This document shows positions 34,401 through 60,895 of a stretch of 64,000 nt of DNA, one piece after another. The translations under genes were made by a program, and so were the position numbers. Below the pieces are notes generated by a model. That model was not told the origin of the DNA and ran no database searches. It saw nothing but the letters and a program-made list of their open reading frames with translations. The stretch covers positions 24,073,365-24,137,364 of the forward strand of contig NC_092678.1 in NCBI RefSeq assembly GCF_964355755.1, written 5' to 3'. Position 1 is the stretch's first letter. Every line of letters begins with the position of its first letter. This stretch comes from Antedon mediterranea (taxonomy: Eukaryota; Animalia; Echinodermata).

Positions 34401-36607
34401 TAACCTACTGAAGCATCAAACTTAACGTGTGGTGATGTCACATCAAACTTATCCCGCATTGGTGACGTCACATCAAACTTATCCTGCATTGGTGACAAGG
34501 TTGAATATGGTGTTGACGTACAATAGATATCATTTTTTGTAAATGGTTTCAAAACAGACGATTGTTTTTTTGCGCTGTTGGACATTATACTTTCAGAAAT
34601 ATATTGCTCCTGATCAAAGAAGAAGAAAATGATGTGAAAGCATTGCAGTGTGTAGAAGTAATGTACAGAATTGAGTTCTGATTCATTTTTATACCCGCTG
34701 CTATATATACAGTGGCTTAACGGCTATGAGCGCTCATTTGCTAAACCCAGGAGCCCAAGAGCTTACAGGGGTCCAGAGAAAAAAACCGCCATTGATATAC
34801 ACCCGCCTCTAGCGGTAGGGTTCCTAAACCAGGGGCCCTATGAATAATAGTGAAGTAACAGCTTAGATCAATTTTGTATACTGTCTATCATAATGTTTAC
34901 CATGGGTTTATGCATATTTTCCTTATTTCTACCATCTTCAAAAACTGGTTGAATTCTAGGTTTCTGGTCACAGGATTGTATTGAGTGTCTGTGGCCTGAA
35001 ATACTGGTAGCACATGCATGGTATGGATGAGAAAATCTAATGCAAAAGAATATATAGTTCACTATTGTATTACAGTAGGTATCAAACATTAGAAGTCCAA
35101 AATAGGCTGTGTCCAAACTTGAATTGATCACAATATTATACAGTAAATCAGATTTTTAGAAATACCATTTTATATATACTTATGTATATACTTAAGTATA
35201 TACTTATGCATATACTTATGTATATACTTATGTATATACTTATGTATATACTTATGTATATACTTATGTATATACTTATGTATATACTATGTATATACTA
35301 TGTATATACTTATGTATATACTACACTGTATTGTAAACATTATTATAGGCATTGTTACATTTTATTTACTATAACTTTGAGTATTCTAAATTCAAGAATA
35401 TAATGAGAAAAAAAAGAGAGTAGTATGTTAATATGTATTTGTAATAATTATGAAGAATGAGTAAATTATATAGTAAATCAGATTAATAGATACAAAAGAA
35501 AATAAAAACATTTCTTGCAAGCCTACCTTGAAACATCATGTTGGTCGTTGAGGTCTAGCTTAGAGGGCGTTTCAATAGGAGACATTGGTAGTTCCATGTT
35601 TCTTTTTCTTTTACGATAATTTTGAAAAGGATCAAATACTTTTTCTAAATCTACATGGTTAACCTTCTTGATTCCTTGCATTCGTTTTGCTGCAAAAAAA
35701 TAAAAAATTAATAATAAAAGTTATTGGGTGAGGTGGGGTGGGTTGTGATCCAGGGTTTTTTAAATGGGGAAGCAATACTATACAATTATTCTTCAAAGTA
35801 AGTAGTGCATGATTATATTTATCTATCAAAAGGGAGGAGATGCCCCCTGATAAGACACTTATGGTTTTCATTGAAATGTTGCTTTACAGTACATATAAAT
35901 GTAATATAGTATATTTATTTTCATCATTTTTTTAGCTGTAGTATGGTACCTTGTTTTGTCTTATGGATGTGGTTACAAGTATTGATAGACAGTAGATCCT
36001 GACTACCACCAGCTGAATGTGACGACTTGCTTGAGGAAGAAGCATCAAATACTCGGTTTAACTTGTTCATATATCGCTTCTTTTCAAAATATTCCTAAGA
36101 AAAAAAATGAATATGCTGTGAAAATAACAATACATTACAATAGGCCTAATGAGTAATAATAATAGTAATAATGCATAGGCCTAGGCCTAGCCTAGGCCTA
36201 AAAAAATAAAAAGCTGTTTTGTATGTAGAACAAGATTAAGAATGTATTGTATTTCTCCCTTATTTACCTGTTGTATTCTCTTTTCCTCTTTTGTACTTCT
36301 TACACGCTTCCTACAGTATAATAAAATACATTTATCATCAAATCATTAATCTTAGATTAAACATTAAGGCCTACAGGGGCCTAGGCAGGCCCCGGCCTAC
36401 ACTATCCTACTGCTCTACGCTACCGCGGGCCGGGATAGATAGCTAGGCCCTAGGCCTAGCCTATATGCCTAGATTTCCGCCCGGTAGTGTACATCATTAC
36501 ATTACTTTAGTAGGCCCTTTAGTCTAGTCCACCAATACATAGGCCTACATGAAATCACTAAGACGCATGTTATAGTCATCCTACCTTATTCCACCCACCC
36601 AATTCAT
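31443..36607 (-). CDS. REDIC1: REDIC1/C12orf40 homologue (regulator of DNA class I crossover intermediates 1), multi-exon
   Basis: Spliced exons 36607-36585, 36310-36268, 36094-35950 and 35689-35527 give MNWVGGIRKRVRSTKEEKRIQQEYFEKKR...SQDLLSINTCNHI...KKVNHVDL...MELPMSPIETPSKLDL, matching the C12orf40 N-terminus I recall (MNWVGG.R, QKEYFEK.R, S.D.L, EL.MSP..PSKL). Further exons at ~35035-34901, 34609-33960, ~33754-33679, ~33320-33254, ~32657-32570 and a last exon 32447-31443. Middle boundaries are approximate. Confidence 0.85.
31878..32318 (-). repeat. Coding 21 bp tandem repeat x ~21 in the REDIC1 last exon, read as NVTQTTP/NLIQTTP
   Basis: This frame is continuous from the acceptor at 32447 to the stop at 31443 (1005 nt). 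Confidence 0.85.
32853..32970. repeat. ~40 bp tandem repeat x3 (taatcatgtgatctgaacttctagttacaattgggtgata), intronic
   Basis: Directly visible. Confidence 0.85.
35171..35322. repeat. 12 bp tandem repeat (tatgtatatact)n, intronic
   Basis: Directly visible; source of the spurious MYIL ORF. Confidence 0.9.
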
Positions 36608-38749: not shown

Positions 38750-38975
38750 AAACTTCCGGGGCGGAGCTTAGTACCAGACACGTGTTTCTGAATTACCAAT
38801 CGTTGTTATGAAGAAGTTCAGAATGCGCGGGGGCAACAGTAATAATTGAGTAACCAATCAACGAGTCACAGCAACGAGGATGACGACGAATTAGCCAATC
38901 ACAGTTAGAATAAGTTCATCAACAAATTTGCATATTTAGTTTTCGTCCCGCCACCAACTTACGTTGCCATTTCGT
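38750..38975 (+). promoter_or_regulatory. Pol II promoter of the repeat-array transcription unit
   Basis: ETS/GC box acttccggggcggagc (~38752-38767), CCAAT boxes at ~38795, 38854 and 38895, octamer ATTTGCAT at 38926-38933, GCCATTT at ~38966, local CpG enrichment, followed by a GAA-rich exon ending in AG|GTAAGT at 39056/39057. Confidence 0.7.
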
Positions 38976-40459
38976 AAGTTGACGGCGGCGAAGAAACATC
39001 TCGAAGAAGAAGAAGAAAAAGAAGATGAAGAGACAGGTAGAGTAGGCCGAGAGTAGGTAAGTATTTTATTGGTTTGAAAATACCTTTATTCAAAATATCT
39101 TCGAGTTCACGATTATCATATCGACTTCTAGTATGCCCTAGCTAATCATTTTGTTATTTAGCTTATTTAATGTCACATTTTTATACCGAAAATATTGATT
39201 TTATGAACTACCTTTTCACCGCCTCACCACACACACACACACCGTCGACTCATCATATAAAGTTTTAATTGAGGCTACTTAATTCTGCCTACTAAATTAC
39301 CAATTTTCAATTTCAACACATTGATTATTAGCAACTACAACACTGATTTCATCAATACAGTTCATTTTATCAATTGTTAGCGAATGAAACTGAGCCTATT
39401 TATTTTCATAGGTTTTCTGAAAAGTAAATCACCGCGAAGAACATTATCGTCTGCCTAGCGCGTTCACTGGTTCCTGGTAACTGTGACGTACTGCCAGGTG
39501 TTAGCGCGTACGTTGTCTGATTTTCTACTCGGCCCAATCTACTCGCGGGAACAGAACTTCTTGGTGGTAGAGACTGTTCTCGAACGAAGAATATTTATAC
39601 GTCGAAACTTATTGTTGAATTTAATAGATTAAAGCACATGTTACAATAATTTAATTATTACGAATATATTATTTAACATTATTTTTTTTTTATATTAGTT
39701 TTTATTTTATTTATTTAATTTCTTTTTTCAACTTTTTTCAACTTTTTTTTTTCAGGTTTTAATTCTAGACCGTTACCTGGTATCATCATTCATGCTGTGC
39801 TTCTCCACACTTATGACAGATAAGTAATATTATTTTATACTCTTAAATTTCACAGTAGAAATCCCTATTGGTGTTCATACTTCTTGGTACTTTCGAGATT
39901 TTTCTGTTTCTGCATGCACTTCTGCAACCTTTTACGTTTACACAAATAGATGTTTTGTTATGTGCTTTTCTTGTTTATGAATGTTTTGTTAACTGTAAAT
40001 TAATTAAGAGTATTTTTTCCCTGCACTTTCTTTTATTTTCCAGGTAATTTAGGTTTCTTGGGACATCAGCAAATGCAGACACAGATATGAATGTTACTTG
40101 TATACTAACACATCACTTGTTTATATTGTGTTAAACGTAAAAGGTGTCAGAAAGCATGGAAAATGAATTTGGGGAACCTTGAAACAAATAATTAAAATAG
40201 AGTAATGCTTAAACTAAGACATATAAATAACAAGTTATTATATAATCATGTTTCATATCTTTTCAGATCTAGTTTTGACATTACAAGGAAAGCAATCAAA
40301 GAGCATCAGATGTACAGATGCAATAAGGCTGTTGGAACCAATAAGGTAATAAACATCTTAGTCAATCTAATAGTATAATTTCAATTTTCTTTTTACTTTC
40401 TTTTTTTCAGATAGCAGCTATGGAGACAAATGCAAAGTCACAGGTAAGTAAAAATACAT

Positions 40460-43400
40460 GTATTGCATTTTAAATCATGTTTTTTGGGTAAATGTATTTG
40501 ATATAATGTGTGAGGTGGCATTATATTTTGGTATAGTACATTTTGCCTGCAGGTATGTGTGTAGCTAAGATATATTAAATGTAGCTAAGGGTCTAGAGGT
40601 TTAAGTTTCAATGCATTTTAAATTATGGTATTTTTTTGTAAATTTATTTGATATAATGTGTAAGGTGGCATTATTGGTATTTTAAACTTTGCCTGCAGGT
40701 GTGTGTAGCTAAGATATATTAACAGTAGCTAAGGGTCTAGAGGTTTAAGTTTCAATGCATTTTAAATCATGGTATTTTTTGTATATGTATTTGATATAAT
40801 GTGTAAGGTGGCATTATATTTTGGTATTGTACATTTGCAGGTATGTGTGTAGCTAAGTTATATTAAGTGTAGCTAAGGGTCTAGAGCTTTAAGTTTCAAT
40901 GCATTTTACATTATGGTATTTTTTGTAAATTTATTTGATATAATGTGTAAGGTGGCATTTTTGGTATTGTAAACTTTGTCTGCAGGCAGCTAAGATTTAT
41001 TAAATGTAGCTAAGGGGGTACAGGTTTAAATTTAAATGCACTTTAAATCATGGTATTTTTTGGTAAACTTATTTGATATAATGTGTAAGGTGGTAGGTAA
41101 TGGTAAAATATAGTTTTTATTTAGGTAATCTTTTCAGGTCATACTATATGGATGGATAGATGCAAGGATGTTTTTGAAACCAATTACAGGTAAGAAACAT
41201 CATATTCTATGTAATGGTATAAGTAATTGTCTATTTAGTTACTATTTTCAGATCACACTAAGGATGTACAGGTTCAAGGCATTTGGAACCAATCACAGGT
41301 AAGAAACATCATATCCTATGTCATATTATTAAGAGTATAATTCATTTTCTTTATACTTTTTCTTTTCAGATGGCACCTATGGACATACCAATGCTAGGCT
41401 GTTGAAGAAAATGAAAGGTAAGACTTATCTTTGTCTATCTAATAGTATAATTCATATTCTTTTTTACTTCTCTTTTCAGGTAGGACCATGGGGAGACCGA
41501 TGAAAGGATGTTGGAACTAATCACATATAGGGAACATCAGATGTACTCAGATGCAAGACTGTTGGAATCATTCAGGTAAATAAAAAAATAAACATCTTAG
41601 CCTATCTAATGGTATAATTAGTTTATTTAAACATTCTCCTTTCATTCATTCTTTTTTATTACTTTTTAGGTCTTTCCGATAAAAGTACATTTTTTCAACC
41701 AGTCACCGGTATGCAAATGTACATAGTAAGTTTTCCTTACTATTTAATTTTTCAGATTGCACCTATGAATATACCGATGCAAGGTTGTTTCAAACAATAA
41801 CAGGTAAGAAACATCATATTCTATGTAATGGTATAATTAATTGTCTATTTAGTTACTCTTTTCAGTTCGCACTAAGGATGTACAGGTTCAAGGCATTTGG
41901 AACCAATCACAGGTAAGAAACATCATATCCTATGTTATATTATTAAGAGTATAATTCATTTTCTTTATACTTTTTCTTTTCAGATGGCACCTATGGAAAT
42001 AGCAATGCAAGGCTGTTGGACAAAATCAGAGGTGAGAAACATCTTAGTCTATCTAATAGTATAATTCATTTTCTTTTTTATTTCTCTTTTCATGTATTAC
42101 CATGGGGAGACCGATGCAAGGATGTTGGAACTAATCACATATAGGGAACATCAGATGTACTCAGATGCAAGACTGTTGGAATCATTCAGGTAAATAAAAA
42201 AATAAACATCTTAGCCTATCTAATGGTATAATTCATTTTCTTTTTAACTTCTATTTTCAGGTAGGGCCATGGGGAGATTGATGCAAGGATGTTGGAACTA
42301 ATCACATATAGGGAACATCAGATGTACTCAGATGCAAGACTGTTGGAATCATTCAGGTAAATAAAAAAATAAACATCTTAGCCTATCTAATGGTATAATT
42401 AGTTTTTTTAACATTCTCCTTTCATTCATTCTTTTTTATTATTTTTCAGGTTTTTCCGATAAAAGTGCATTAATTGTTATTTTTAATTTCAACCAGTCAC
42501 AGGTATTCAAATGTAGATAGTAAGTTTTGCTTACTATTTAATTTTTCAGATTGCACCTATGGATATACCGATGCAAGGTTGCTGCAACCAATCACAAGTA
42601 AGAAACATCATATTCTATGTAATGGTATAATTAATTGTCTACTTAGTTACTCTTTTCAGATAGCACTATGGATGTACAGTTTAAATTGTTTTGGAACCAA
42701 TCACAGGAAAGAAACATTATAGCATATAAAATAATTTTCCTTTTGATTTCAACTTTATCCTTTCAGATAGCATTGGAGGTACAGATGCAACAAACTTGGT
42801 ATTATTATACCAGATCTCACCTATAGACATGTCATTTGAGGGCTGTTGGAAACAAGTGAATCACAGGTAAGAATACAAAATATCACATGCACATAACCAT
42901 TTTCTTTTTTATTAATAATAGTATAATACATTTTCTTTATACGTTGTCTTTTCAGATAGCAAATGTACATACCAATGCAAGGCATTTGGAACCAATCACA
43001 GGTAAGAAATATTTTAGTCTATCTAATAGTATAATTCATTTTCTTTTTACTTTCTATTTGCAGATATCAGCTATAGACATACCATTGCAAGGCTGTTGAA
43101 ACCAGTCACAGGTAAGGATGCCACATCCACAGGTATGTGTGCTAAGATATATTAAGTGTAGCTAAGGGTCTAGAGGTTTAAGTTTCAATGCATTTTAAAT
43201 TTTGGTATTTTTTTGTAAATTTATTTGATATAATGTGTAAGGTGGCATTATTGGTATAGTACATTTTGCCTGCAGGTATGTGTGTAGCTAAGATATATTA
43301 AGTGTAGCTAAGGGTCTAGAGCTTTAAGTTTCAATGCATTTTAAATTTTGGTATTTTTTTGTAAATTTATTTGATATAATGTGTAAGGTGGCATTATTGG

Positions 43401-46400
43401 TATTGTAAACTTTGCCTGCATGTGTGTGTAGCTAAGATATATTAAGTGTAGCTAAGGGTCTAGAGGTTTAAGTTTCAATGCATTTTAAATCATGGTATTT
43501 TTTGGGTAAATTTATTTGATATAAATAATGTGTAAGGTGGTATTATTGGTATTTTAAACTTTGCCTGCATGTGTGTATAGCTAAGATATATTAAATGTAG
43601 CTAAGGATCTAGAGCTTTAAGTTTCAATGCATTTTAAATTATGGTATTTTTTGTAAATGTATTTGATATAATGTGTAAGGTGGCATTATATTTTGGTTTA
43701 GTAAATTTTGCCTGCATGTGTGTGTAGCTAAGATATATTAAATGTAGCTAAGGGTCTAGAGGTTTAAGTTTCAATGCATTTTAAATCATGATATTTTTTC
43801 GTAAACTTATTTGATATAATGTGTAAGGTGGCATTATTGGTATTTAAAACTTTGCCTGCAGGTGTGGGTAGCTAAGATATATTAATGGTAGCTAAGGGTC
43901 TAGAGGTTTAAGTTTCAATGCATTTTTAATCATGGTATTTTTTGTATATGTAATTGATATAATGTGTAAGGTGACATTTTATTTTGGTATTGTACATTTT
44001 GCCTGCAGGTATGTTTGTAGCTAAGATATATTAAGTGTAGCTAAGGGTCTAGAAGTTTAAGTTTCAATGCATTTTTAAATCATAGTATCTTTTTTATAAA
44101 TTTATTTGATATAATGTGTAAGGTGGCATTATTGGTATTGTAAACTTTGTCTGCAGGCAGCTAAGATTTATTAAGTGTAGCTAAGGGTCTACAGGTTTAA
44201 GTTTCAATGCATTTTAAATAATGGTATTTTTTGGTAAACTTATTTGATATAATGTGTAATGTGGTAGGTAATGGTAAAATATAGTTTTTATTTAGGTACT
44301 CCTTTCAGGTCATACTATATGGATGGATAGATGCAAGGCTGTTTTTGGAACCAATTACAGGTAAGAAACATCATATTCTATGTAATGGTATAATTAATTG
44401 TCTATTTAGTTACTCTTTTCAGATCACACTATGTATGTACAGGTTCAAGGCATTTGGAACAAATAACAGGTAAGAAACATCATATCCTATGTTATATTAT
44501 TAAGAGTATAATTCATTTTCTTTATACTTTTTCTTTTCAGATGGCACCTATGGACATACCAATGCAAGGCTGTTGGACAAAATGAAAGGTAAGAAACATC
44601 TTAGTCTATCTAATAGTATAATTCATTTTCTTTTTAACTTCTCTTTTCATGTATTACCATGGGAGACCGATGCAAGGATGTTGGAACTAATCACATATAG
44701 AGAACATCAGATGTACTCAGATGCAAGACTGTTGGAATCATTCAGGTAAATAAAAAAAATAAACATCTTAGCCTATCTAATGGTATAGTTAGTTTATTTA
44801 AACATTCTCCTTTCATTCATTAATTTTTATTACTTTTCAGGTATTTCTAATAAAAGTACATTTGTTATTTTTAATTTCAACCCGTCACCGGTATGCAAAT
44901 GTACATAGTAAGTTTTCCTTACTATTTAATTTTTCAGATTGCACCTATGGATATACCGATGCAAGGTTGTTTCAACCAATCACAGGTAAGAAACATCATT
45001 TTCTACGTAATGGTATAATTAATTGTCTATTTAGCTACTATTTTCAGATCGCACTATGTATGTACAGGTTCAAGGCATTTGGAACCAATCAAAGGTAAGA
45101 GACATCATATCCTATGTTATATTATTAATAGTATAATTCATTTTCTTGATACTTTTTCTTTTCAGATGGCACCTATGGACATACCAATGCAAGGCTGTTG
45201 AAGAAAATGAAAGGTAAGAAACATCTTAGTCTATCTAATAGTATAATTCATTTTCTTTTTAACTTCTCTTTTCAGGTAGGACCATGGGGAGACCGATGCA
45301 AGGATGTTGGAACTAATCACAAATAGGGAACATCAGATGTACTCAGATGCAAGACTGTTGGAATCATTCAGGTAAATAAAAGAAATAAACATCTTAGCCT
45401 ATCTAATGGTATAATTAGTTTATTTAACATTCTCCTTTCATTCAGTCTTTTTTATTACATTTCAGGTCTTTCTGATAAAAGTGCATTTGTTATTTTTAAT
45501 TTCAACCCGTCACCGGTATGCAAATGAACAAAGTAAGTTTTCCTTACTATTTAATTTTTCAGATTGCACCTATGGATATACCGATGCAAGGTTACTGCAA
45601 CCAATCACAGGTAAGAAACATCATATGCTATGTAATGGTATAATTAATTGTCTACTTAGTTACTCTTTTCAGATCGCACTTTGTATGTACAGGTTCAAGG
45701 CATTTGGAACCAATCACAGGTAAGAAACATCATATCCTATGTTATATTATTAAGAGTATAATTCATTTTCTTTATACTTTATCTTTTCAGATGGCCCCTA
45801 TGGACATACCAATGCAAGGCTGTTGGACAAAATGAAAGGTAAGACTTATCTTTGTCTATCTAATAGTATAATTCATATTCTTTTTTACTTCTCTTTTCAG
45901 GTATTACCATGGGGAGACCGATGCAAGGATGTTGGAACTAATCACATATAGGGAACATCAGATGTACTCAGATGCAAGACTGTTGGAATCATTCAGGTAA
46001 ATAAAAAAATAAACATCTTAGCCTATCTAATGGTATAATTAGTTTATTTAAACATTCTCCTTTCATTCATTCTTTTTTATTCCTTTTTAGGTCTTTCCGA
46101 TAAAAGTACATTTTTTCAACCAGTCACCGGTATGCAAATGTACATAGTAAGTTTTCCTTACTATTTAATTTTTCAGATTGCACCTATGAATATACCGATG
46201 CAAGGTTGTTTCAAACAATAACAGGTAAGAAACATCATATTCTATGTAATGGTATAATTAATTGTCTATTTAGTTACTCTTTTCAGATCGCACTAAGGAT
46301 GTACAGGTTCAAGGCATTTGGAACCAATCACAGGTAAGAGACATCATATCCTATGTTATATTATTAATAGTAGAATTCATTTTCTTGATACTTTTTCTTT

Positions 46401-49400
46401 TCAGATGGCACCTATTGACATACCAATGCAAGGCTGTTGAAGAAAATGAAAGGTAAGAATTATCTTAGTCTATCTAATAGTATAATTCATTATCTTTTTA
46501 ACTTCTCTTTTCAGGTAGGACCATGGGGAGACCGATGCAAGGATGTTGGAACTAATCACATATAGGGAACATCAGATGTACTCAGATGCAAGACTGTTGG
46601 AATCATTCAGGTAAATAAAAAAAATAAACATCTTAGCCTATCTAATGGTATAGTTAGTTTTTTTAATATTCTCCTTTCATTCATTCTTTTTTTTTTTTTA
46701 CTTTTCAGGTCTTTCCGATAAAAGTACATTTTTAATTTTTAATTTCAACCCGTCACAGGTATGCAAATGAACATAGTAAGTTTTCCTTACTATTTAATTT
46801 TTCAGATTGCACCTATGGATATACCGATGCAAGGTTGTTTCAACCAATCACAGGTAAGAAACATCATTTTCTACGTAATGGTATAATTAATTGTCTATTT
46901 AGCTACTATTTTCAGATCGCACCTATGGGTGTACAGGTTCAAGGCATTTGGAACCAATCACAGGTAAGAAACATTACATCAAACATTGTATAAAATAATT
47001 TTCCTTTTGATTTCAACTTTATCCTTTCAGATAGCATTGGAGGTACAGATGCAAGAAACTTGGTATTATTATACCAGATCTCACCTATAGACATGTCAAT
47101 TGAGGGCTGTTGGAAACAAGTGAATCACAGGTAAGAATACAACATATCACATGCACATAACCATTTTCTTTTTTATTAATAATAGTATAATACATTTTCT
47201 TTATACGTTCTCTTTTCAGATAGCAAATGTACATACCAATGCAAGGCATTTGGAACCAATCACAGGTAAGAAATATCTTAGTCTATCTAATAGAATAATT
47301 CATTTTGTTTTCACTTTCTATTTGCAGATATCAGCTATAGACATACCATTGCAAGGCTGTTGAAACCAGTCACAGGTAAGGATGCCACATCCACAGGTAT
47401 GTGTAGCTAAGATATATTAAGTGTAGCTAAGGGTCTACAGGTTTAAGTTTCAATGCATTTTAAATTTTGGTATTTTTTTGTAAATTTATTTGATATAATG
47501 TTTAAGGTGGCATTATTGGTATAGTACATTTTGCCTGCAGGTATGTGTGTAGCTAAGATATATTAAGTGTAGCTAAGGGTCTAGAGCTTTAAGTTTCAAT
47601 GCATTTTAAATTTTGGTATTTTTTTGTAAATTTATTTGATATAATGTGTAAGGTGGCATTATTGGTATTGTAAAGTTTGCCTGCATGTGTGTGTAGCTAA
47701 GATATATTAAGTGTAGCTAAGGGTCTAGAGGTTTAAGTTTCAATGCATTTTAAATCATGGTATTTTTGGGGTAAATTTATTTGATATAAATAATGTGTAA
47801 GGTGGTATTATTGGTATTTTAAACTTTGCCTGCATGTGTGTATAGCTAAGATATATTAAATGTAGCTAAGGATCTAGAGCTTTAAGTTTTAATGCATTTT
47901 AAATTATGGTATTTTTTGTAAATGTATTTGATATAATGTGTAAGGTGGCATTATATTTTGGTTTAGTAAATTTTGCCTGCATGTGTGTGTAGCTAAGATA
48001 TATTAAATGTAGCTAAGGGTCTAGAGGTTTAAGTTTCAATGCATTTTAAATCATGATATTTTTTCTTAAACTTATTTGATATAATGTGTAAGGTGGCATT
48101 ATTGGTATTTAAAACTTTGCCTGCAGGTGTGGGTAGCTAAGATATATTAATGGTAGCTAAGGGTCTAGAGGTTTAAGTTTCAATGCATTTTTAATCATGG
48201 TATTTTTTGTATATGTAATTGATATAATGTGTAAGGTGACATTTTATTTTGGTATTGTACATTTTACCTGCAGGTATGTTTGTAGCTAAGATATATTAAG
48301 TGTAGCTAAGGGTCTAGAAGTTTAAGTTTCAATGCATTTTTAAATCATAGTATCTTTTTTATAAATTTATTTGATATAATGTGTAAGGTGGCATTATTGG
48401 TATTGTAAACTTTGTCTGCAGGCAGCTAAGATTTATTAAGTGTAGCTAAGGGTCTACAGGTTTAAGTTTCAATGCATTTTAAATAATGGTATTTTTTGGT
48501 AAACTTATTTGATATAATGTGTAATGTGGTAGGTAATGGTAAAATATAGTTTTTATTTAGGTACTCCTTTCAGGTCATACTATATGGATGGATAGATGCA
48601 AGGCTGTTTTTGGAACCAATTACAGGTAAGAAACATCATATTCTATGTAATGGTATAAGTAATTGTCTATTTAGTTACTCTTTTCAGATCACACTATGTA
48701 TGTACAGGTTCAAGGCATTTGGAACAAATAACAGGTAAGAGACATCATATCCTATGTTTTATTATTAATAGTATAATTCATTTTCTTGATACTTTTTCTT
48801 TTCAGATGGCACCTATGGACATACCAATGCAAGGCTGTTGAAGAAAATGAAAGGTAAGAAACATCTTAGTCTATCTAATAGTATAATTCATTTTCTTTTT
48901 AACTTCTCTTTTCAGGTAGGACCATGGGGAGACCGATGCAAGGATGTTGGAACTAATCACATATAGGGAACATCAGATGTACTCAGATGCAAGACTGTTG
49001 GAATCATTCAGGTAAATAAAAGAAATAAACATCTTAGCCTATCTAATGGTATAATTAGTTTATTTAACATTCTCCTTTCATTCAGTCTTTTTTATTACTT
49101 TTCAGGTATTTCTAATAAAAGTGCATTTGTTATTTTTAATTTCAACCCGTCACCGGTATGCAAATGAACAAAGTAAGTTTTCCTTACTATTTAATTTTTC
49201 AGATTGCACCTATGGATATACCGATGCAAGGTTGCTGCAACCAATCACAGGTAAGAAACATCATATTCTATGTAATGGTATAATTACTTGTCTATTTAGT
49301 TACTCTTTTCAGATCACACTATATATGTACATGTTCAAGGCATTTGGAACCAATCACAGGTAAGAAACATTACATCAAACATTGTATAAAATAATTTTCC

Positions 49401-52400
49401 TTTTAATTTCAACTTTCTCCTTTCAGAGCATTGGAGGTACAGATGCAACAAACTTGGTATTATTATACCAGATCTCACCTATAGACATGTCAATTGAGGG
49501 CTGTTGGAAACAAGTGAATCACAGGTAAGAATACAACATATCACATGCACATAACCATTTTCTTTTTTATTAATAATAGTATAATTCATTTTCTTTATAC
49601 TTTATCTTTTCAGATGGCACCTATGGACATATCAATGCAAGGCTGTTGAAGAAAATGAAAGGTAAGAATTATCTCAGTCTATCTAATAGTATAATTCATT
49701 TTCTTTTTTACCTTCATTTTCAGGTAGGACCATAGGGAGATTGATGCAAGGATGTTGGAACTAATCACATATAGGGAACATCAGATGTACTCAGATGCAA
49801 GACTGTTGGAATCATTCAGGTAAATAAAAAAATAAACATCTTAGCCTATCTAATTGTATAGTTAGTTTTTTTAACATTCTCTTTTCATTCATTCTTTTTT
49901 TTCACTTTTCAGGTCTTTCCGATAAAAGTACATTTTTTATTTTTTATTTCAACCAGTCACAGGTATGCAAATGTGGATAGTAAGTTTTGCTTACTATTTA
50001 ATTTTTCAGATTGCACCTATGGATATACCGATGCAAGGTTACTGCAACCAATCACAGGTAAGAAACATCATATGCTATGTAATGGTATAATTAATTGTCT
50101 ACTTAGTTACTCTTTTCAGATCGCACTATGGGTGTACAGGTTCAAGGCATTTGGAACCAATCACAGGTAAGAAACATTACATCAAACATTGTATAAAATA
50201 ATTTTCCTTTTGATTTCAACTTTATCCTTTCAGATAGCATTGGAGGTACAGATGCAAGAAACTTGGTATTATTATACCAGATCTCACCTATAGACATGTC
50301 AATTGAGGGCTGTTGGAAACAAGTGAATCACAGGTAAGAATACAACATATCACATGCACATAACCATTTTCTTTTTTATTAATAATAGTATAATACATTT
50401 TCTTTATACGTTCTCTTTTCAGATAGCAAATGTACATACCAATGCAAGGCATTTGGAACCAATCACAGGTAAGAAATATCTTAGTCTATCTAATGGAATA
50501 ATTCATTTTGTTTTCACTTTCTATTTGCAGATATCAGCTATAGACATACCATTGCAAGGCTGTTGAAACCAGTCACAGGTAAGGATGCCACATCCACAGG
50601 TATGTGTAGCTAAGATATATTAAGTGTAGCTAAGGGTCTACAGGTTTAAGTTTCAATGCATTTTAAATTTTGGTATTTTTTTGTAAATTTATTTGATATA
50701 ATGTTTAAGGTGGCATTATTGGTATAGTACATTTTGCCTGCAGGTATGTGTGTAGCTAAGATATATTAAGTGTAGCTAAGGGTCTAGAGCTTTAAGTTTC
50801 AATGCATTTTAAATTTTGGTATTTTTTTGTAAATTTATTTGATATAATGTGTAAGGTGGCATTATTGGTATTGTAAAGTTTGCCTGCATGTGTGTGTAGC
50901 TAAGATATATTAAGTGTAGCTAAGGGTCTAGAGGTTTAAGTTTCAATGCATTTTAAATCATGGTATTTTTTGGGTAAATTTATTTGATATAAATAATGTG
51001 TAAGGTGGTATTATTGGTATTTTAAACTTTGAATGCATGTGTGTATAGCTAAGATATATTAAATGTAGCTAAGGATCTAGAGCTTTAAGTTTCAATGCAT
51101 TTTAAATTATGGTATTTTTTTGTAAATGTATTTGATATAATGTGTAAGGTGGCATTATATTTTGGTTTAGTAAATTTTGCCTGCATGTGTGTGTAGCTAA
51201 GATATATTAAATGTAGCTAAGGGTCTAGAGGTTTAAGTTTCAATGCATTTTAAATCATGATATTTTTTCGTAAACTTATTTGATATAATGTGTAAGGTGG
51301 CATTATTGGTATTTAAAACTTTGCCTGCAGGTGTGGGTAGCTAAGATATATTAATGGTAGCTAAGGGTCTAGAGGTTTAAGTTTCAATGCATTTTTAATC
51401 ATGGTATTTTTTGTATATGTAATTGATATAATGTGTAAGGTGACATTTTATTTTGGTATTGTACATTTTACCTGCAGGTATGTTTGTAGCTAAGATATAT
51501 TAAGTGTAGCTAAGGGTCTAGAAGTTTAAGTTTCAATGCATTTTTAAATCATAGTATCTTTTTTATAAATTTATTTGATATAATGTGTAAGGTGGCATTA
51601 TTGGTATTGTAAACTTTGTCTGCAAGCAGCTAAGATTTATTAAGTGTAGCTAAGGGTCTACAGGTTTAAGTTTCAATGCATTTTTAAATCATAGTATCTT
51701 TTTTGTAAATTTATTTGATATAATGTGTAAGGTGGCATTATTGGTATTGTAAACTTTGTCTGCAGGCAGCTAAGATTTATTAAGTGTAGCTAAGGGTCTA
51801 CAGGTTTAAGTTTCAATGCATTTTAAATAATGGTATTTTTTGGTAAACTTATTTGATATAATGTGTAATGTGGTAGGTAATGGTAAAATATAGTTTTTAT
51901 TTAGGTACTCCTTTCAGGTCATACTATATGGATGGATAGATGCAAGGCTGTTTTTGGAACCAATTACAGGTAAGAAACATCATATTCTATGTAATGGTAT
52001 AATTAGTTGTCTATTTAGTTACTCTTTTCAGATCACACTATGTATGTACAGGTTCAAGGCATTTGGAACAAATAACAGGTAAGAAACATCATATCCTATG
52101 TTATATTATTAAGAGTATAATTCATTTTCTTTATATTTTTTCTTTTCAGATGGCATCTATGGACATACCAATGCAAGGCTGTTGGACAAAATCAAAGGTA
52201 AGAAACATCTTAGTCTATCTATAGTATAATTCATTTTCTTTTTTACCTTAAATTTCAGGTAGGACCATGGGGAGACCGATGCAAGGATGTTGGAACTAAT
52301 CACATATAGGGAACATCAGTTGTACTCAGATGCAAGACTGTTGGAATCATTCAGGTAAATAAAAAAATAAACATCTTAGCCTATCTAATGGTATAGTTAG

Positions 52401-55400
52401 TTTATTTAAACATTCTCTTTTCATTCATTCTTTTTTATTATTTTCAGGTCTTTCCGATGTAAGTACATTTTTTTTTTATTTCAACCAGTCACAGGTATGC
52501 AAATGTACATAGTAAGTTTTCCTTACTAATTAATTTTTCAGATTGCACCTATGGATATACCGATGCAAGGTTGTTTCAACCAATCACAGGTAAGAAACAT
52601 CATTTTCTACGTAATGGTATAATTAATTGTCTATTTAGCTACTATTTTCAGATCGCACTATGTATGTACAGGTTCAAGGCATTTGGAACCAATCAAAGGT
52701 AAGAGACATCATATCCTATGTTATATTATTAATAGTATAATTCATTTTCTTGATACTTTTTCTTTTCAGATGGCACCTATGGACATACCAATGCAAGGCT
52801 GTTGAAGAAAATGAAAGGTAAGAAACATCTTAGTCTATCTAATAGTATAATTCATTTTCTTTTTAACTTCTCTTTTCAGGTAGGACCATGGGGAGACCGA
52901 TGCAAGGATGTTGGAACTAATCACAAATAGGGAACATCAGATGTACTCAGATGCAAGACTGTTGGAATCATTCAGGTAAATAAAAGAAATAAACATCTTA
53001 GCCTATCTAATGGTATAATTAGTTTATTTAACATTCTCCTTTCATTCAGTCTTTTTTATTACATTTCAGGTCTTTCTGATAAAAGTGCATTTGTTATTTT
53101 TAATTTCAACCCGTCACCGGTATGCAAATGAACAAAGTAAGTTTTCCTTACTATTTAATTTTTCAGATTGCACCTATGGATATACCGATGCAAGGTTGCT
53201 GCAACCAATCACAGGTAAGAAACATCATATTCTATGTAATGGTATAATTACTTGTCTATTTAGTTACTCTTTTCAGATCACACTATATATGTACATGTTC
53301 AAGGCATTTGGAACCAATCACAGGTAAGAAACATTACATCAAACATTGTATAAAATAATTTTCCTTTTAATTTCAACTTTCTCCTTTCAGAGCATTGGAG
53401 GTACAGATGCAATAAACTTGGTATTATTATACCAGATCTCACCTATAGACATGTCAATTGAGGGCTGTTGGAAACAAGTGAATCACAGGTAAGAATACAA
53501 AATATCACATGCACATAACCATTTTCTTTTTTATTAATAATAGTATAATTCATTTTCTTTATACTTTATCTTTTCAGATGGCACCTATGGACATATCAAT
53601 GCAAGGCTGTTGAAGAAAATGAAAGGTAAGAATTATCTCAGTCTATCTAATAGTATAATTCATTTTCTTTTTTACCTTCATTTTCAGGTAGGACCATGGG
53701 GAGATTGATGCAAGGATGTTGGAACTAATCACATATAGGGAACATCAGATGTACTCAGATGCAAGACTGTTGGAATCATTCAGGTAAATAAAAAAATAAA
53801 CATCTTAGCCTATCTAATTGTATAGTTAGTTTTTTTAACATTCTCTTTTCATTCATTCTTTTTTTTCACTTTTCAGGTCTTTCCGATAAAAGTACATTTT
53901 TTATTTTTTATTTCAACCAGTCACAGGTATGCAAATGTGGATAGTAAGTTTTGCTTACTATTTAATTTTTCAGATTGCACCTATGGATATACCGATGCAA
54001 GGTTACTGCAACCAATCACAGGTAAGAAACATCATATGCTATGTAATGGTATAATTAATTGTCTACTTAGTTACTCTTTTCAGATCGCACTATGGGTGTA
54101 CAGGTTCAAGGCATTTGGAACCAATCACAGGTAAGAAACATTACATCAAACATTGTATAAAATAATTTTCCTTTTGATTTCAACTTTATCCTTTCAGATA
54201 GCATTGGAGGTACAGATGCAAGAAACTTGGTATTATTATACCAGATCTCACCTATAGACATGTCAATTGAGGGCTGTTGGAAACAAGTGAATCACAGGTA
54301 AGAATACAACATATCACATGCACATAACCATTTTCTTTTTTATTAATAATAGTATAATACATTTTCTTTATACGTTCTCTTTTCAGATAGCAAATGTACA
54401 TACCAATGCAAGCCATTTGGAACCAATCACAGGTAAGAAATATCTTAGTCTATCTAATGGAATAATTCATTTTGTTTTCACTTTCTATTTGCAGATATCA
54501 GCTATAGACATACCATTGCAAGGCTGTTGAAACCAGTCACAGGTAAGGATGCCACATCCACAGGTATGTGTAGCTAAGATATATTAAGTGTAGCTAAGGG
54601 TCTACAGGTTTAAGTTTCAATGCATTTTAAATTTTGGTATTTTTTTGTAAATTTATTTGATATAATGTTTAAGGTGGCATTATTGGTATAGTACATTTTG
54701 CCTGCAGGTATGTGTGTAGCTAAGATATATTAAGTGTAGCTAAGGGTCTAGAGCTTTAAGTTTCAATGCATTTTAAATTTTGGTATTTTTTTGTAAATTT
54801 ATTTGATATAATGTGTAAGGTGGCATTATTGGTATTGTAAAGTTTGCCTGCATGTGTGTGTAGCTAAGATATATTAAGTGTAGCTAAGGGTCTAGAGGTT
54901 TAAGTTTCAATGCATTTTAAATCATGGTATTTTTTGGGTAAATTTATTTGATATAAATAATGTGTAAGGTGGTATTATTGGTATTAGTACATTTTGCCTG
55001 CAGGTATGTGTGTAGCTAAGATATATTAAATGTAGCTAAGGATCTAGAGCTTTAAGTTTCAATGCATTTTAAATTATGGTATTTTTTGTAAATGTATTTG
55101 ATATAATGTGTAAGGTGGCATTATATTTTGGTTTAGTAAATTTTGCCTGCATGTGTGTGTAGCTAAGATATATTAAATGTAGCTAAGGGTCTAGAGGTTT
55201 AAGTTTCAATGCATTTTAAATCATGATATTTTTTCGTAAACTTATTTGATATAATGTGTAAGGTGGCATTATTGGTATTTAAAACTTTGCCTGCAGGTGT
55301 GGGTAGCTAAGATATATTAATGGTAGCTAAGGGTCTAGAGGTTTAAGTTTCAATGCATTTTTAATCATGGTATTTTTTGTATATGTAATTGATATAATGT

Positions 55401-58400
55401 GTAAGGTGACATTTTATTTTGGTATTGTACATTTTACCTGCAGGTATGTTTGTAGCTAAGATATATTAAGTGTAGCTAAGGGTCTAGAAGTTTAAGTTTC
55501 AATGCATTTTTAAATCATAGTATCTTTTTTATAAATTTATTTGATATAATGTGTAAGGTGGCATTATTGGTATTGTAAACTTTGTCTGCAGGCAGCTAAG
55601 ATTTATTAAATGTAGCTAAGGGTCTACAGGTTTAAGTTTCAATGCATTTTAAATAATGGTATTTTTTGGTAAACTTATTTGATATAATGTGTAATGTGGT
55701 AGGTAATGGTAAAATATAGTTTTTATTTAGGTACTCCTTTCAGGTCATACTATATGGATGGATAGATGCAAGGCTGTTTTTGGAACCAATTACAGGTAAG
55801 AAACATCATATTCTATGTAATGGTATAATTAGTTGTCTATTTAGTTACTCTTTTCAGATCACACTATGTATGTACAGGTTCAAGGCATTTGGAACAAATA
55901 ACAGGTAAGAAACATCATATCCTATGTTATATTATTAAGAGTATAATTCATTTTCTTTATATTTTTTCTTTTCAGATGGCACCTATGGACATACCAATGC
56001 AAGGCTGTTGGACAAAATGAAAGGTAAGAAACATCTTAGTCTATCTAATAGTATAATTCATTTTCTTTTTAACTTCTCTTTTCATGTATTACCATGGGAG
56101 ACCGATGCAAGGATGTTGGAACTAATCACATATAGAGAACATCAGATGTACTCAGATGCAAGACTGTTGGAATCATTCAGGTAAATAAAAAAAATAAACA
56201 TCTTAGCCTATCTAATGGTATAGTTAGTTTATTTAAACCTTCTCCTTTCATTCATTAATTTTTATTACTTTTCAGGTATTTCTAATAAAAGTACATTTGT
56301 TATTTTTAATTTCAACCCGTCACCGGTATGCAAATGTACATAGTAAGTTTTCCTTACTATTTAATTTTTCAGATTGCACCTATGGATATACCGATGCAAG
56401 GTTGTTTCAACCAATCACAGGTAAGAAACATCATTTTCTACGTAATGGTATAATTAATTGTCTATTTAGCTACTATTTTCAGATCGCACTATGTATGTAC
56501 AGGTTCAGGGCATTTGGAACCAATCAAAGGTAAGAGACATCATATCCTATGTTATATTATTAATAGTATAATTCATTTTCTTGATACTTTTTCTTTTCAG
56601 ATGGCACCTATGGACATACCAATGCAAGGCTGTTGAAGAAAATGAAAGGTAAGAAACATCTTAGTCTATCTAATAGTATAATTCATTTTCTTTTTAACTT
56701 CTCTTTTCAGGTAGGACCATGGGGAGACCGATGCAAGGATGTTGGAACTAATCACATATAGGGAACATCAGATGTAGTCAGATGCAAGACTGTTGGAATC
56801 ATTCAGGTAAATAAAAGAAATAAACATCTTAGCCTATCTAATGGTATGATTAGTTTATTTAACATTCTCCTTTCATTCATTCTTTTTTATTACATTTCAG
56901 GTCTTTCTGATAAAAGTGCATTTGTTATTTTTAATTTCAACCCGTCACCGGTATGCAAATGAACAAAGTAAGTTTTCCTTACTATTTAATTTTTCAGATT
57001 GCACCTATGGATATACCGATGCAAGGTTGCTGCAACCAATCACAGGTAAGAAACATCCTATTCTATGTAATGGTATAATTACTTGTCCATTTAGTTACTC
57101 TTTTCAGATCACACTATATATGTACATGTTCAAGGCATTTGGAACCAATCACAGGTAAGAAACATTACATCAAACATTGTATAAAATAATTTTCCTTTTA
57201 ATTTCAACTTTCTCCTTTCAGAGCATTGGAGGTACAGATGCAACAAACTTGGTATTATTATACCAGATCTCACCTATAGACATGTCAATTGAGGGCTGTT
57301 GGAAACAAGTGAATCACAGGTAAGAATACAACATATCACATGCAAATAACCATTTTCTTTTTTTATTAATAATAGTATAATTCATTTTCTTTATACTTTA
57401 TCTTTTCAGATGGCACCTATGGACATACCAATGCAAGGCTGTTGAAGAAAATGAAAGGTAAGAATTATCTTAGTCTATCTTATAGTATAATTCATTTTCT
57501 TTTTTACCTTCATTTTCAGGTAGGACCATGGGGAGATTGATGCAAGGATGTTGGAACTAATCACATATAGGGAACATCAGATGTACTCAGATGCAAGACT
57601 GTTGGAATCATTCAGGTAAATAAAAAAATAAACATCTTAGCCTATCTAATTGTATAGTTAGTTTTTTTAACATTCTCTTTTCATTCATTCTTTTTTTTTA
57701 CTTTTCAGGTCTTTCCGATAAAAGTACATTTTTTATTTTTTATTTCAACCAGTCACAGGTATGCAAATGTGGATAGTAAGTTTTGCTTACTATTTAATTT
57801 TTCAGATTGCACCTATGGATATACCGATGCAAGGTTACTGCAACCAATCACAGGTAAGAAACATCATATGCTATGTAATGGTATAATTAATTGTCTACTT
57901 AGTTACTCTTTTCAGATCGCACTATGGGTGTACAGGTTCAAGGCATTTGGAACCAATCACAGGTAAGAAACATTACATCAAACATTGTATAAAATAATTT
58001 TCCTTTTGATTTCAACTTTATCCTTTCAGATAGCATTGGAGGTACAGATGCAAGAAACTTGGTATTATTATACCAGATCTCACCTATAGACATGTCAATT
58101 GAGGGCTGTTGGAAACAAGTGAATCACAGGTAAGAATACAAAATATCACATGCACATAACCATTTTCTTTTTTATTAATAATAGTATAATACATTTTCTT
58201 TATACGTTCTCTTTTCAGATAGCAAATGTACATACCAATGCAAGGCATTTGGAACCAATCACAGGTAAGAAATATTTTAGTCTATCTAATAGTATAATTC
58301 ATTTTCTTTTTACTTTCTATTTGCAGATATCAGCTATGGACATACCATTGCAAGGCTGTTGAAACCAGTCACAGGTAAGGATGCCACATCCACAGGTATG

Positions 58401-59285
58401 TGTAGCTAAGATATATTAAGTGTAGCTAAGGGTCTAGAGCTTTAAGTTTCAATGCATTTTAAATTTTGGTATTTTTTTGTAAATTTATTTGATATAATGT
58501 GTAAGGTGGCATTATTGGTATAGTACATTTTGCCTGCAGGTATGTGTGTAGCTAAGATATATTAAGTGTAGCTAAGGGTCTAGAGCTTTAAGTTTCAATG
58601 CATTTTAAATTTTGGTATTTTTTTGTAAATTTATTTGATATAATGTGTAAGGTGGCATTATTGGTATTGTAAACTTTGCCTGCATGTGTGTGTAGCTAAG
58701 ATATATTAAGTGTAGCTAAGGGTCTAGAGGTTTAAGTTTCAGTGCATTTTAAATTATGGTATTTTTTTTAATGTATTTTATATAATGTGTAAGGTGGCAT
58801 TATATCTTGGTATTGTACATTTTTCTTAAGGGTATGTGTGTAGCTAAGATATATTAAGTGTAGCTAAGGGTCTAGATGTTTAAGTTTCAATGCATTATTT
58901 CAAAACAGGTTTTTTGTAAATGTATTTGATATAATGTGTAAAGTGGCATTATATCTGGTTTAGTACATTTTGCCTGCAGGTGTGCGTAGCTAAGATATAT
59001 TAAGTGTAGCTAAGGGTCTAGAGGTTTAAGTTTCAATGCATTTATATTTATGGTATTTTTTTGTAAATTTTTTTGATATAAATAATGTGTAAGGTGGCAT
59101 TATTGGTATTGTAAACTTTGCCTGCAGGTGTGTGTAGCTAAGATATATTAAGTGTAGCTAAGGGTCTAGAGGTTTAAGTTTCAGTGCATTTTAAATCATG
59201 GTAGTTTTTGTAAATGTATTTGATATAATGTGTAAGGTGGCATTATATCTTGGTATTGTACATTTATGGTATGTGTGTAGTTAAG
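40460..59285 (+). repeat. Higher-order repeat array: five 3.2-4.3 kb superunits, each a block of ~110 bp-derived exon/intron units plus a block of ~147 bp repeats
   Basis: The landmark gtaaggatgccacatccacaggtatg recurs at ~43112, 47376, 50579, 54543 and 58375. The 147 bp blocks lie at ~40460-41105, 43132-44275, 47397-48540, 50600-51885, 54564-55708 and 58396-59285. A ~620 bp sub-repeat occurs inside the exon blocks. Confidence 0.95.
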
Positions 59286-59369
59286 TATTGTTTCTCTTAA
59301 GCACTATTTTTTTAGTTTGTGCGTGTACAGGTTTTGTCACTCAAGGTACTTGTAGGGTGAAATATCCAG

Positions 59370-60145
59370 ACCAGATACATGTGCGGTACTTTGATGCTAT
59401 GGTGGAATAGCAAGGAAAACAGAACCAACACATTAGAAGATAGAGGACAATCAAAAGTAAGTTTACTACTAACCTCAATTACACAATTTCAGAGTTGATA
59501 AATTATATTCGGAGCAGCTCGTCTATCAGAGATACATGTGCGGCACTTGGATACTATGGACATACAGGATGGAATAGCAAGAAAAACCGGACCAACACAC
59601 TGGAAGATGGAAAGACAATCAAAAGTAAGTTTACTACTAACCTCAATTCCACAATTTCAGAGTTGATAGGTTATATCCGGAGCAGCTTGTCTATCAGAGA
59701 TAAATGTGCGGATACTATGGACATACAGGATGGAATAGCAAGAAAAACCGGACCAACACACTGGAAGATGGAAAGACAATCAAAAGTAAGTTTACTACTA
59801 ACCTCAATTCCACAATTTCAGAGTTGATAGGTTATATCCGGAGCAGCTTGTCTATCAGAGATAAATGTGCGGATACTATGGACATACAGGATGGAATAGC
59901 TAGAAAAACCGGACCAACACATTGGAAGATGGAAAGACAATCAAAAGTAAGTTTACTACTAACCTCAATTCCACAATTTCAAAGTTGATAGGTTATATCC
60001 GGAGCAGCTTGTCTATCAGAGATACATGTGCGGATACTATGGACATTCAGGATGGAATAGCAAGAAAAACAGGACCAACACATTGGTAGATGGAGGACAA
60101 TCAAAAGTAAGTTTACTACTAACCTCAATTGCACAATTTCAGAAT
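59370..60145 (+). repeat. ~161 bp tandem repeat x5, each containing gtaagtttacTACTAACctcaattccacaatttcag
   Basis: GTAAGT at 59457, 59625, 59786, 59947 and 60107. Confidence 0.92.
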
Positions 60146-60774
60146 TGACTGCACGAGTTGGTGATTACAAAACTTATTACACAAAGGAATATGACAGCTA
60201 AACTGTAAGTATATCTGTAAGGTAAGTAAGATAAGTATAATATTTAGATTAGTGGATATATTCTCTTCAGGCCCTGTGACACATAATGTTGCAGTGTACT
60301 CCAGATGCCTAGCTGTTTATGGCATGTTTTAGATTTATTCCTATAGTCCCAATTCCATTCTCCATGTAGGCCTACTCCAATTAGAATAGGATATATTATT
60401 GTTTTTCATATGTATATTTCTTGATAAAATGTATTGTATATTTTGCTATGTTTTTTGCACCGTTGAGGAGCATCATTACACGTGCTACCTGCCCTAGGTG
60501 TCCTCGCTGTGATCATCAACCTTGACGTGGTAGCGAGGCTTGTGTGTTTCCAACTTGGAAGCCGGACTAATGATGATCTTAACAAATGTTTAATGTAATA
60601 CATTTATGTGATAAAAAATAATATTATTAATTTTGTTTTATGAACATTCAAACTAAAATGTTGTGTTCAATTGATGCCAATTTGCAATCAGAGAACACAA
60701 AGTTATAAAAATAATAAACTTTCTTCATGCACACTCACACCTATAAATGATATGTGCAAATTATTATAAACATT

Positions 60775-60895
60775 TAACCAATCACAAACCAGAACTTTAA
60801 AACGCTAGTCTGATTGGTCATAATATTTGACTCCCTAGATTGATAAAAATTTCCAGATTCTTTTTTGGCCCCGAGACGTAGCTGAAACATGGCGA
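60775..60895 (+). promoter_or_regulatory. TOMM6 promoter region
   Basis: Opposed CCAAT boxes (aaccaatcac ~60776, ctgattggtc ~60810) and a YY1-like AAACATGGCG overlapping the start codon. Confidence 0.55.

What the first reader, a model, noticed from the sequence alone, without database searches (positions are those of the whole stretch)
59457..60142. Five 36 nt micro-introns with a perfect TACTAAC branch point 10 nt from a perfect GTAAGT
Seen: gtaagtttacTACTAACctcaattccacaatttcag separates ~125 nt repeated exons (one copy ends in caa instead of cag). Established: a donor-to-branch distance this short sterically blocks splicing and enforces mutually exclusive exons (alpha-tropomyosin exons 2/3), and UACUAAC is the SF1 and Quaking/STAR binding motif. 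Inference: the 3' end of the array is a mutually exclusive exon cassette, an unusually small intron class, or a retained U1/SF1/QKI-binding module that could hold the RNA in the nucleus. The same exon-intron design recurring in a largely different repeat supports selection on splicing signals at this locus.
Basis: partly seen in the sequence, partly recalled or inferred. Interest (0 to 1): 0.7.

Follow-up and report, generated by a model that had tools for sequence, protein, structure and literature searches.

The report
Duplicated shrunken intron in feather star
In a feather star, one 36-base stretch carrying textbook splice signals has been copied five times in a row at the end of a likely non-coding, repeat-built gene; it is likely a shrunken intron too short to be cut out on its own, so it looks like a duplicated leftover rather than a new class of tiny introns.

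Summary
The sequence is as described: five 36-nt GTAAGT…TACTAAC…CAG elements, branch A at +16, one ending CAA. They are copies of one 161-nt tandem unit (94% matches), so they count as one event; TACTAAC is not enriched in the window (13 vs 13.7 expected). The organism is a crinoid. The repeat ends a 19-kb array of about 96 exon/intron-like units with no long reading frame, whose predicted short introns are 47–98 nt and never carry TACTAAC (0 of 88). A 16-nt donor-to-branch distance is far below the ~50 nt reported for human spliceosomes (PMC6692369). The only RNA evidence is one low-depth contig that runs unspliced through a donor and an acceptor boundary; DNA or pre-mRNA is not excluded. Across copies the 36-mer is no more conserved than its exon. 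A mutually exclusive coding cassette fails: no frame, unequal exon lengths, no distant branch point. Best reading: a shrunken intron, amplified in tandem, retained or bypassed by longer splices. A selected U1/SF1 retention module remains possible but untested. The host array is the more unusual object.

The parts
59457..59492 (+). 36-nt element, copy 1 (GTAAGT, TACTAAC at 59467-59473, ends CAG)
59625..59660 (+). 36-nt element, copy 2 (ends CAG)
59786..59821 (+). 36-nt element, copy 3 (ends CAG)
59947..59982 (+). 36-nt element, copy 4, acceptor dead (ends CAA)
60107..60142 (+). 36-nt element, copy 5 (ends CAG), followed by unique sequence after about 7 nt
59403..60148 (+). 161-nt tandem array, 4.6 copies, 94% matches; units 168/161/161/160 nt; likeness to the unit extends back to about 59370
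59316..59456 (+). predicted exon E0 ahead of copy 1 (acceptor AG at 59315, or at 59330)
   Evidence: sequence pattern only
59493..59624 (+). repeat exon E1, 132 nt; a second AG at 59529 would give a 73-nt intron
59661..59785 (+). repeat exon E2, 125 nt; second AG at 59697
59822..59946 (+). repeat exon E3, 125 nt; second AG at 59858
59983..60106 (+). repeat exon E4, 124 nt; second AG at 60019; covered with both flanking 36-mers by one contig of run X1
60143..60204 (+). predicted unique exon E5 (62 nt)
   Evidence: sequence pattern only
60205..60270 (+). predicted last intron, 66 nt, GTAAGT...TTCAG
   Evidence: sequence pattern only
60271..60718 (+). putative terminal exon; the only AATAAA/ATTAAA before the next gene is at 60713
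   Evidence: inference
41138..58374 (+). host array: 96 predicted exons (39-100 nt) and 95 predicted introns (88 of them 47-98 nt), five higher-order modules, no long reading frame
38759..40443 (+). putative promoter (GC box 38759; CCAAT 38796, 38854, 38895) and first short exons of the host, first donor at 39057; two of these exons match the array exon profile (E 4.7e-07, 1.2e-05)
   Evidence: not tested on RNA

Best explanation
The five elements are tandem copies of one 36-nt stretch that is likely a shrunken intron near the 3' end of a likely non-coding exon-intron array gene, and it is predicted to be too short to be excised on its own. Shown: one duplicated unit, intron-like ends, branch consensus 16 nt from the donor and 20 nt from the AG, no reading frame, one dead acceptor, and an RNA-run contig that crosses a donor and an acceptor boundary unspliced. 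Inferred: an ordinary 50-70 nt intron lost sequence between donor and branch point; U1/U6 and U2 cannot occupy one 36-mer together, so each element is retained or is bypassed when the donor of one copy pairs with the acceptor of a later copy (196-686 nt introns of normal geometry), skipping the repeat exon between. The copy number comes from recent unequal duplication, not from selection for a cassette.
For: One unit, 94% matches, unique in the window. Branch-to-AG distance 20 nt is normal (19-35 nt, PMC5378181, passage); only donor-to-branch is short. The TTTCAG end is the acceptor of 88 of 95 predicted array introns, on the same strand, between a predicted acceptor (59315) and donor (60205). 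No other branch-like A lies beyond +21 inside the 36-mer. Human data: ~50 nt needed, 35 nt abolishes assembly (PMC6692369). Other introns here are longer: 47-98 nt predicted in the array, 115 nt or more between 16 HYR exons of the neighbour gene. Run X1 holds spliced RNA (the TOM6-like exon 1 contig continues into exon 2) and one 190-nt contig, 59952-60141, 0 gaps, depth 5.8, with 31 letters past the acceptor boundary and 35 past the donor boundary. No extra conservation of the 36-mer. No frame with or without the 36-mers; no protein relatives.
Against: The RNA evidence is a single low-depth contig of one run: strand unknown, DNA or pre-mRNA not excluded, and it appears to carry the CAA allele, which could not be spliced in any case (my reading of table 3). 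The size limit comes from human extracts; animal introns of 22-27 nt exist in myxozoans and dicyemids (PMC13644364) and human ones of 43-56 nt (PMC4463651); the crinoid minimum is unknown. No longer ancestor of the 36-mer was found: likeness to the 47-nt array class vanished once splice motifs were held fixed (212-855 of 2000 shuffles), and the array exon profile hits the unit only at E 2.5-2.8. A block of about 34 columns over donor and branch site is invariant in 5 of 5 copies. No ortholog could be compared. Transcription of the host gene was not tested.
Confidence: 0.5

Rival explanations
1. Dead or never-used signals: the repeat is a local minisatellite, or part of a decayed and silent gene, and the splice motifs are chance or inert relics that no spliceosome meets.
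For: TACTAAC not enriched; a loose donor-branch-acceptor pattern appears in 1,326 of 20,000 unit shuffles and once on the - strand of the window; kinship with the array is unproven; the X1 contig could be DNA.
Against: Exact GTAAGT plus TACTAAC plus TTTCAG in order, on the array's strand, between predicted exons; a promoter-like stretch and eight diverged intron classes that keep their ends suggest a gene that is or recently was spliced (partly by construction, as introns were picked by their ends).
Confidence: 0.16
2. True 36-nt introns: the crinoid spliceosome excises them, using A16 or the weaker A21 as branch point.
For: All three signals are present; 36 is a multiple of 3 and stop-free in one frame; the array predicts 14 introns of 47 nt; much shorter animal introns exist (PMC13644364).
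Against: A16 and A21 are both below the 35 nt that blocked assembly in human extract (PMC6692369); short-intron animals have reduced, not strengthened, signals (PMC13644364); the only RNA contig is unspliced; one acceptor is dead; neighbour introns are 115 nt or more.
Confidence: 0.15
3. A selected retention module: unspliceable donor plus branch consensus, five times over, holds U1 and SF1/U2 in a stalled complex and keeps a long non-coding RNA in the nucleus (Gomafu-like plus 5' splice-site-motif retention).
For: Five UACUAAC within 0.7 kb, within Gomafu's 3-7 repeats (PMC3116199); a 5' splice site motif in a mature RNA promotes nuclear retention (PMC4380460, abstract); the 36-mer is unstructured (z about 0); TACTAAC is absent from 88 of 88 short array introns; unspliced contig.
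Against: Copies are recent, with no excess conservation; multiple UACUAAC are neither needed nor sufficient for retention in Gomafu; no QKI half-site; no cross-species conservation could be tested.
Confidence: 0.12
4. A steric mutually exclusive exon cassette like alpha-tropomyosin exons 2/3 or OGDH 4a/4b.
For: Neighbouring exons cannot be joined if the 36-mer is unspliceable, and longer donor-acceptor pairings have normal geometry, so adjacent exons would exclude each other.
Against: No coding frame; exon lengths differ modulo 3; exons are about 91% alike, so the choice has no evident product; no distant branch point or long pyrimidine tract; non-adjacent exons could still be included together.
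Confidence: 0.07

Closest known systems
Steric mutually exclusive exons: alpha-tropomyosin 2/3 (seen only as a citation) and OGDH 4a/4b (PMC7969005, passages)
   Same: Branch consensus closer to the upstream donor than the ~50-nt threshold, between duplicated exons.
   Different: There the branch point is 25-46 nt from the donor and far from the acceptor, in a longer intron between two coding exons. Here it is 16 nt from the donor, 20 nt from the AG, in five copies without a reading frame.
Gomafu/MIAT non-coding RNA with tandem UACUAAC repeats binding SF1 (PMC3116199, passages)
   Same: Several exact UACUAAC in a likely non-coding RNA; if retained they would be exonic.
   Different: Gomafu's motifs are conserved from chicken to human amid divergent sequence; here they are recent copies of one unit, each paired with a donor and an acceptor. 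Expression, localisation and binding are untested.
Ultra-short introns: human 37-65 nt (PMC4463651, passages); myxozoan and dicyemid 20-30 nt (PMC13644364, parts 1-2 of 3)
   Same: GT-AG element under 40 nt.
   Different: Those are validated by RT-PCR or long reads and mostly have weak or reduced signals; myxozoan ones are genome-wide. This is one AT-rich element with strong signals and no excision seen.
5' splice-site-motif nuclear retention (PMC4380460, abstract)
   Same: An unused consensus donor near the 3' end of an RNA.
   Different: Shown in human cells for mRNA reporters; not tested here, and here the donors could be used with downstream acceptors.

Membership tests
Spliceosomal (U2-type) intron | GT...AG ends and a branch consensus | tested here: met
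   4 of 5 copies; copy 4 ends CAA
Spliceosomal (U2-type) intron | Donor-to-branch distance that allows spliceosome assembly (~50 nt in human) | tested here: not met
   16 nt, at most 21 nt for a weaker site, against PMC6692369; crinoid limit unknown
Spliceosomal (U2-type) intron | Excision seen in RNA | tested here: inconclusive
   One unspliced contig in one RNA run; contigs show presence, not absence
Steric mutually exclusive exon cassette | Distant branch point with long pyrimidine tract before the acceptor | tested here: not met
   Branch A is 20 nt from the AG; longest pyrimidine run 4
Steric mutually exclusive exon cassette | Frame-equivalent coding exons | tested here: not met
   132/125/125/124 nt; stops in all frames; no protein relatives
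Steric mutually exclusive exon cassette | One exon per transcript | not testable with these tools
   Needs long RNA reads
Gomafu-like SF1-binding lncRNA | Three or more UACUAAC in the mature RNA | tested here: inconclusive
   Five in the DNA; one contig keeps them, mature state unknown
Gomafu-like SF1-binding lncRNA | Motif conserved across species while flanks diverge | not testable with these tools
   No genome or ortholog available; within the window no excess conservation
Gomafu-like SF1-binding lncRNA | Nuclear localisation and SF1 binding | not testable with these tools
   Bench work
QKI response element (consensus recalled) | ACUAAY core with a UAAY half-site within 20 nt | tested here: not met
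   0 of 5 copies
Mirtron | Intron folds into one hairpin from GU to AG | tested here: not met
   -0.6 kcal/mol, z -0.34 to +0.45 in 3 of 3 copies folded
snoRNA or miRNA host gene | Known small RNA inside the introns | tested here: not met
   No Rfam match in the locus at gathering score or at E up to 2 in 38.5-44.5 and 57-61.5 kb; unknown families not excluded

The most novel reading that the evidence does not exclude
A 21-kb crinoid non-coding gene built from about 100 exon-intron units ends in five deliberately unspliceable donor-branch modules that stall early spliceosomes and anchor the heavily spliced RNA in the nucleus, or force skipping and back-splicing of 125-nt exons: a repeat-built nuclear RNA of a kind not described in echinoderms.
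Probability: 0.12. Interest if true: 0.7.

Novelty: new variant of a known kind. Interest (0 to 1): 0.3.

Why it matters
As best read, it is a small example of how tandem duplication multiplies splice signals in a non-coding locus, and of no wider weight. If reads showed 36-nt excision with a 16-nt donor-to-branch distance in a free-living deuterostome, it would break the structural limit drawn from human spliceosomes. If the retained module proved conserved and nuclear, it would be a natural test of U1 and SF1 as RNA anchors. The host array of about 96 exon-intron units without a reading frame deserves its own look.

Tried and rejected
No RNA holder was listed on record; X1 was a guess there and is treated as RNA because of one spliced junction. 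X1 has no cover at 60146-60469 and no joint across a 36-mer; contigs show presence only, so neither is used as evidence. DNA runs X2, X3, X5 (one sample) list G at 59982, but contigs drop minor variants, so I do not conclude that CAA is absent there. Descent from the 47-nt intron class: 0-5 of 1000 plain shuffles but 212-855 of 2000 with GTAAGT and TTTCAG held in place: dropped. Kinship of the repeat exon with array exons: longest shared word 12 nt, reached by 42 of 1000 shuffles; local scores 2-195 of 300; profile E 2.5-2.8: unproven. Coding: a 127-codon open stretch runs through retained 36-mers and the 168-nt unit has one open frame (252 of 5000 shuffles), but there is no Pfam hit at cut-off, no homolog (the first covered only 224-2000 aa) and an Atlas best score of 0.77: at most a hint of coding ancestry. 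Orthologs: no genome held; two metagenome pattern scans empty. A 36-bp intron peak in tapeworms is recalled; the search for it found 0 papers, so it is not used. The bacterial promoter scan is irrelevant here. A neighbour exon search found nothing. Paper searches for a comparable exon-intron array RNA listed nothing comparable by title or abstract start; they are not exhaustive.

Full report
Observation. The branch A is at +16, 20 nt from the end. The spacers are 132, 125, 125 and 124 nt. All lie in one tandem array of period 161 with 94% matches, and no 16-mer of the unit occurs elsewhere in the window. So the five are one event. TACTAAC occurs 13 times in the window against 13.74 expected, GTAAGT 54 times against 42.4, with 6 of 100 shuffles reaching it. 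For one unit, TACTAAC arises in 300 and GTAAGT in 529 of 20,000 shuffles, and a loose intron pattern in 1,326. The combination is uncommon, but it was picked after the fact.

Context. The best hit of a neighbouring HYR exon is an Antedon mediterranea protein (96% over 64% of the query), so this is a feather star. Upstream lie HYR and 7tm_2 exons on the minus strand. Downstream is a TOM6-like gene (Pfam E 9.9e-06, just under the cut-off). Between them, on the plus strand, runs a promoter-like stretch at 38.76-38.9 kb, a few short exons, and an array from 41138 to 58374 of 96 predicted exons and 95 predicted introns. That list is a pattern walk with a few boundaries set by hand, and three exons behind mutated acceptors were left out. 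Of the introns 88 are 47-98 nt; 88 of 95 end in TTTCAG; 94 of 95 have an exonic G before the donor; 0 of 88 contain TACTAAC. Joined, the exons give 50-56 stops in each frame. Rfam finds nothing in the locus. I read it as a likely non-coding gene; its transcription was not tested. The 161-nt repeat sits between a predicted acceptor at 59315 and a predicted 66-nt last intron at 60205.

Can the 36-mer be spliced? In human extracts about 50 nt are needed between donor and branch site and 35 nt abolished assembly; the U6 and U2 helices alone take 17 and 14 nt (PMC6692369, passages). Here the distance is 16 nt, and the only other branch-like A before the acceptor is at +21. The branch-to-AG distance of 20 nt is ordinary (PMC5378181, passages). 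Shorter animal introns exist, in myxozoans and a dicyemid, with reduced signals (PMC13644364, parts 1-2 of 3), and human introns of 43-56 nt are spliced (PMC4463651, passages). The crinoid minimum is unknown; one crinoid genome paper gives only a mean of 2,728 bp (PMC13079724, passages). Introns between 16 neighbouring HYR exons are 115 nt or longer. The tract before the AG is poor in T (0.35 against at least 0.59 in 88 array introns), but neighbouring coding acceptors are A-rich too, so this weighs little.

RNA. Four runs were laid on 59930-61000. Run X1 holds spliced RNA: its TOM6-like exon 1 contig continues into exon 2. It has one contig on the repeat, 190 nt, 59952-60141, depth 5.8, 4 other letters, 0 gaps. 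It crosses the acceptor boundary of copy 4 with 31 letters and the donor boundary of copy 5 with 35 letters, unspliced. This is one low-depth contig of unknown strand; DNA or pre-mRNA is not excluded, and it appears to carry CAA, which could not be spliced anyway. It is weak support for retention and says nothing against rare excision.

Selection and origin. Among E1-E4 the 36-mer varies at 2 of 36 columns and the exon at 11 of 124 (p 0.73); with copy 1's flank, 10 of 56 (p 0.12). About 34 columns over donor and branch site are invariant in all five, which I cannot separate from chance. One of five acceptors is dead. Kinship with the upstream array is unproven, and an apparent match to the 47-nt intron class vanished under a stricter shuffle. 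The repeat has no frame across copies, spliced or unspliced, and its 127-codon open stretch has no relatives. No ortholog could be fetched.

Mechanism. Most likely (0.5) an ordinary short intron lost sequence between donor and branch point and was then amplified with its flank. Each copy would be retained, or bypassed: donor n with acceptor n+1 or later gives introns of 196-686 nt with normal geometry, and a second AG 37 nt further on gives 73 nt with a TTGAT site at +42, though with AGs in between. Shrinkage, retention and skipping are inferred; the duplication, geometry and lack of frame are shown. Rivals: inert relic or chance (0.16), true 36-nt intron (0.15), selected U1/SF1 retention module (0.12), steric cassette (0.07).

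Comparison. Steric cassettes such as OGDH 4a/4b have branch points 25-46 nt from the donor and far from the acceptor, between coding exons (PMC7969005, passages); two defining features fail here. Gomafu carries 3-7 conserved UACUAAC that bind SF1, yet these are neither needed nor sufficient for nuclear retention (PMC3116199, passages). An unused donor motif can promote retention in human cells (PMC4380460, abstract). A QKI half-site (consensus recalled) is absent in 5 of 5 copies. The element is not a mirtron. Four paper searches listed no comparable exon-intron array RNA (listings only). No supplements were read. Earlier scan notes on duplicated splice signals in other non-coding RNAs are leads, not support.

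Verdict. A real sequence feature with overstated multiplicity and unproven intron status. New variant of a known kind; interest 0.3.

Noticed in passing
window 38759-60718 (+): The host locus: about 96 exon/intron-like units in five higher-order modules (starts 41138, 44309, 48574, 51918, 55744), eight intron classes 61-90% alike inside but with kept ends, no reading frame, no Rfam match. Probably more interesting than the 36-mers; transcription untested.
   Followed up: partly
window 41726, 42520, 44908 ... 57776 (+), 14 copies: Inside the 47-nt intron class sits a second GTAAGT only 30 nt from the AG, paired in a hairpin (z -3.2 for one copy; predicted paired): a possibly masked cryptic donor.
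   Followed up: partly
window 40464-41093, 43136-44264, 47400-48529, 50603-51873, 54567-55699, 58399-59265: 144-nt tandem repeats in the long introns carry CTGCAG|GT junctions (18 copies, against 11 with CTGCAT|GT), resembling zero-length-exon recursive splice sites.
   Followed up: no
window 42093, 44650, 56085 (+): Three array acceptors read TTTCAT instead of TTTCAG, one mutation spread by duplication; the 96-nt exons behind them would be skipped or retained.
   Followed up: partly
window 41370-58374 (+): 34 of 96 predicted exons are 48 nt and 33 of them are open in phase 1, and the 168-nt unit has an open frame: a weak hint of coding ancestry.
   Followed up: partly
window 60889-60959 and 63325-63418 (+): TOM6-like gene, 54 codons, two coding exons; the junction is present in run X1. 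A 90%-alike copy of its upstream stretch 60752-60848 exists elsewhere in DNA and X1 contigs.
   Followed up: partly
window about 4100-33400 (-): Two tandem HYR-repeat, secretin-family 7TM (adhesion GPCR-like) genes with phase-1 HYR exons of 231-252 nt.
   Followed up: partly
window 33956-36110 (-): Unidentified multi-exon gene with a 220-codon exon and no homolog or Pfam match, lying head to head with the array locus.
   Followed up: partly
window 6336-6404 (+): tRNA-like match (43.9 bits), probably the head of a tRNA-derived repeat.
   Followed up: no
window 60500-60590: High-copy dispersed repeat inside the putative terminal exon (very high depth in the DNA runs).
   Followed up: no
window 62770-62845: Alternating long C and G runs forming near-palindromes in the TOM6-like intron.
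   Followed up: no
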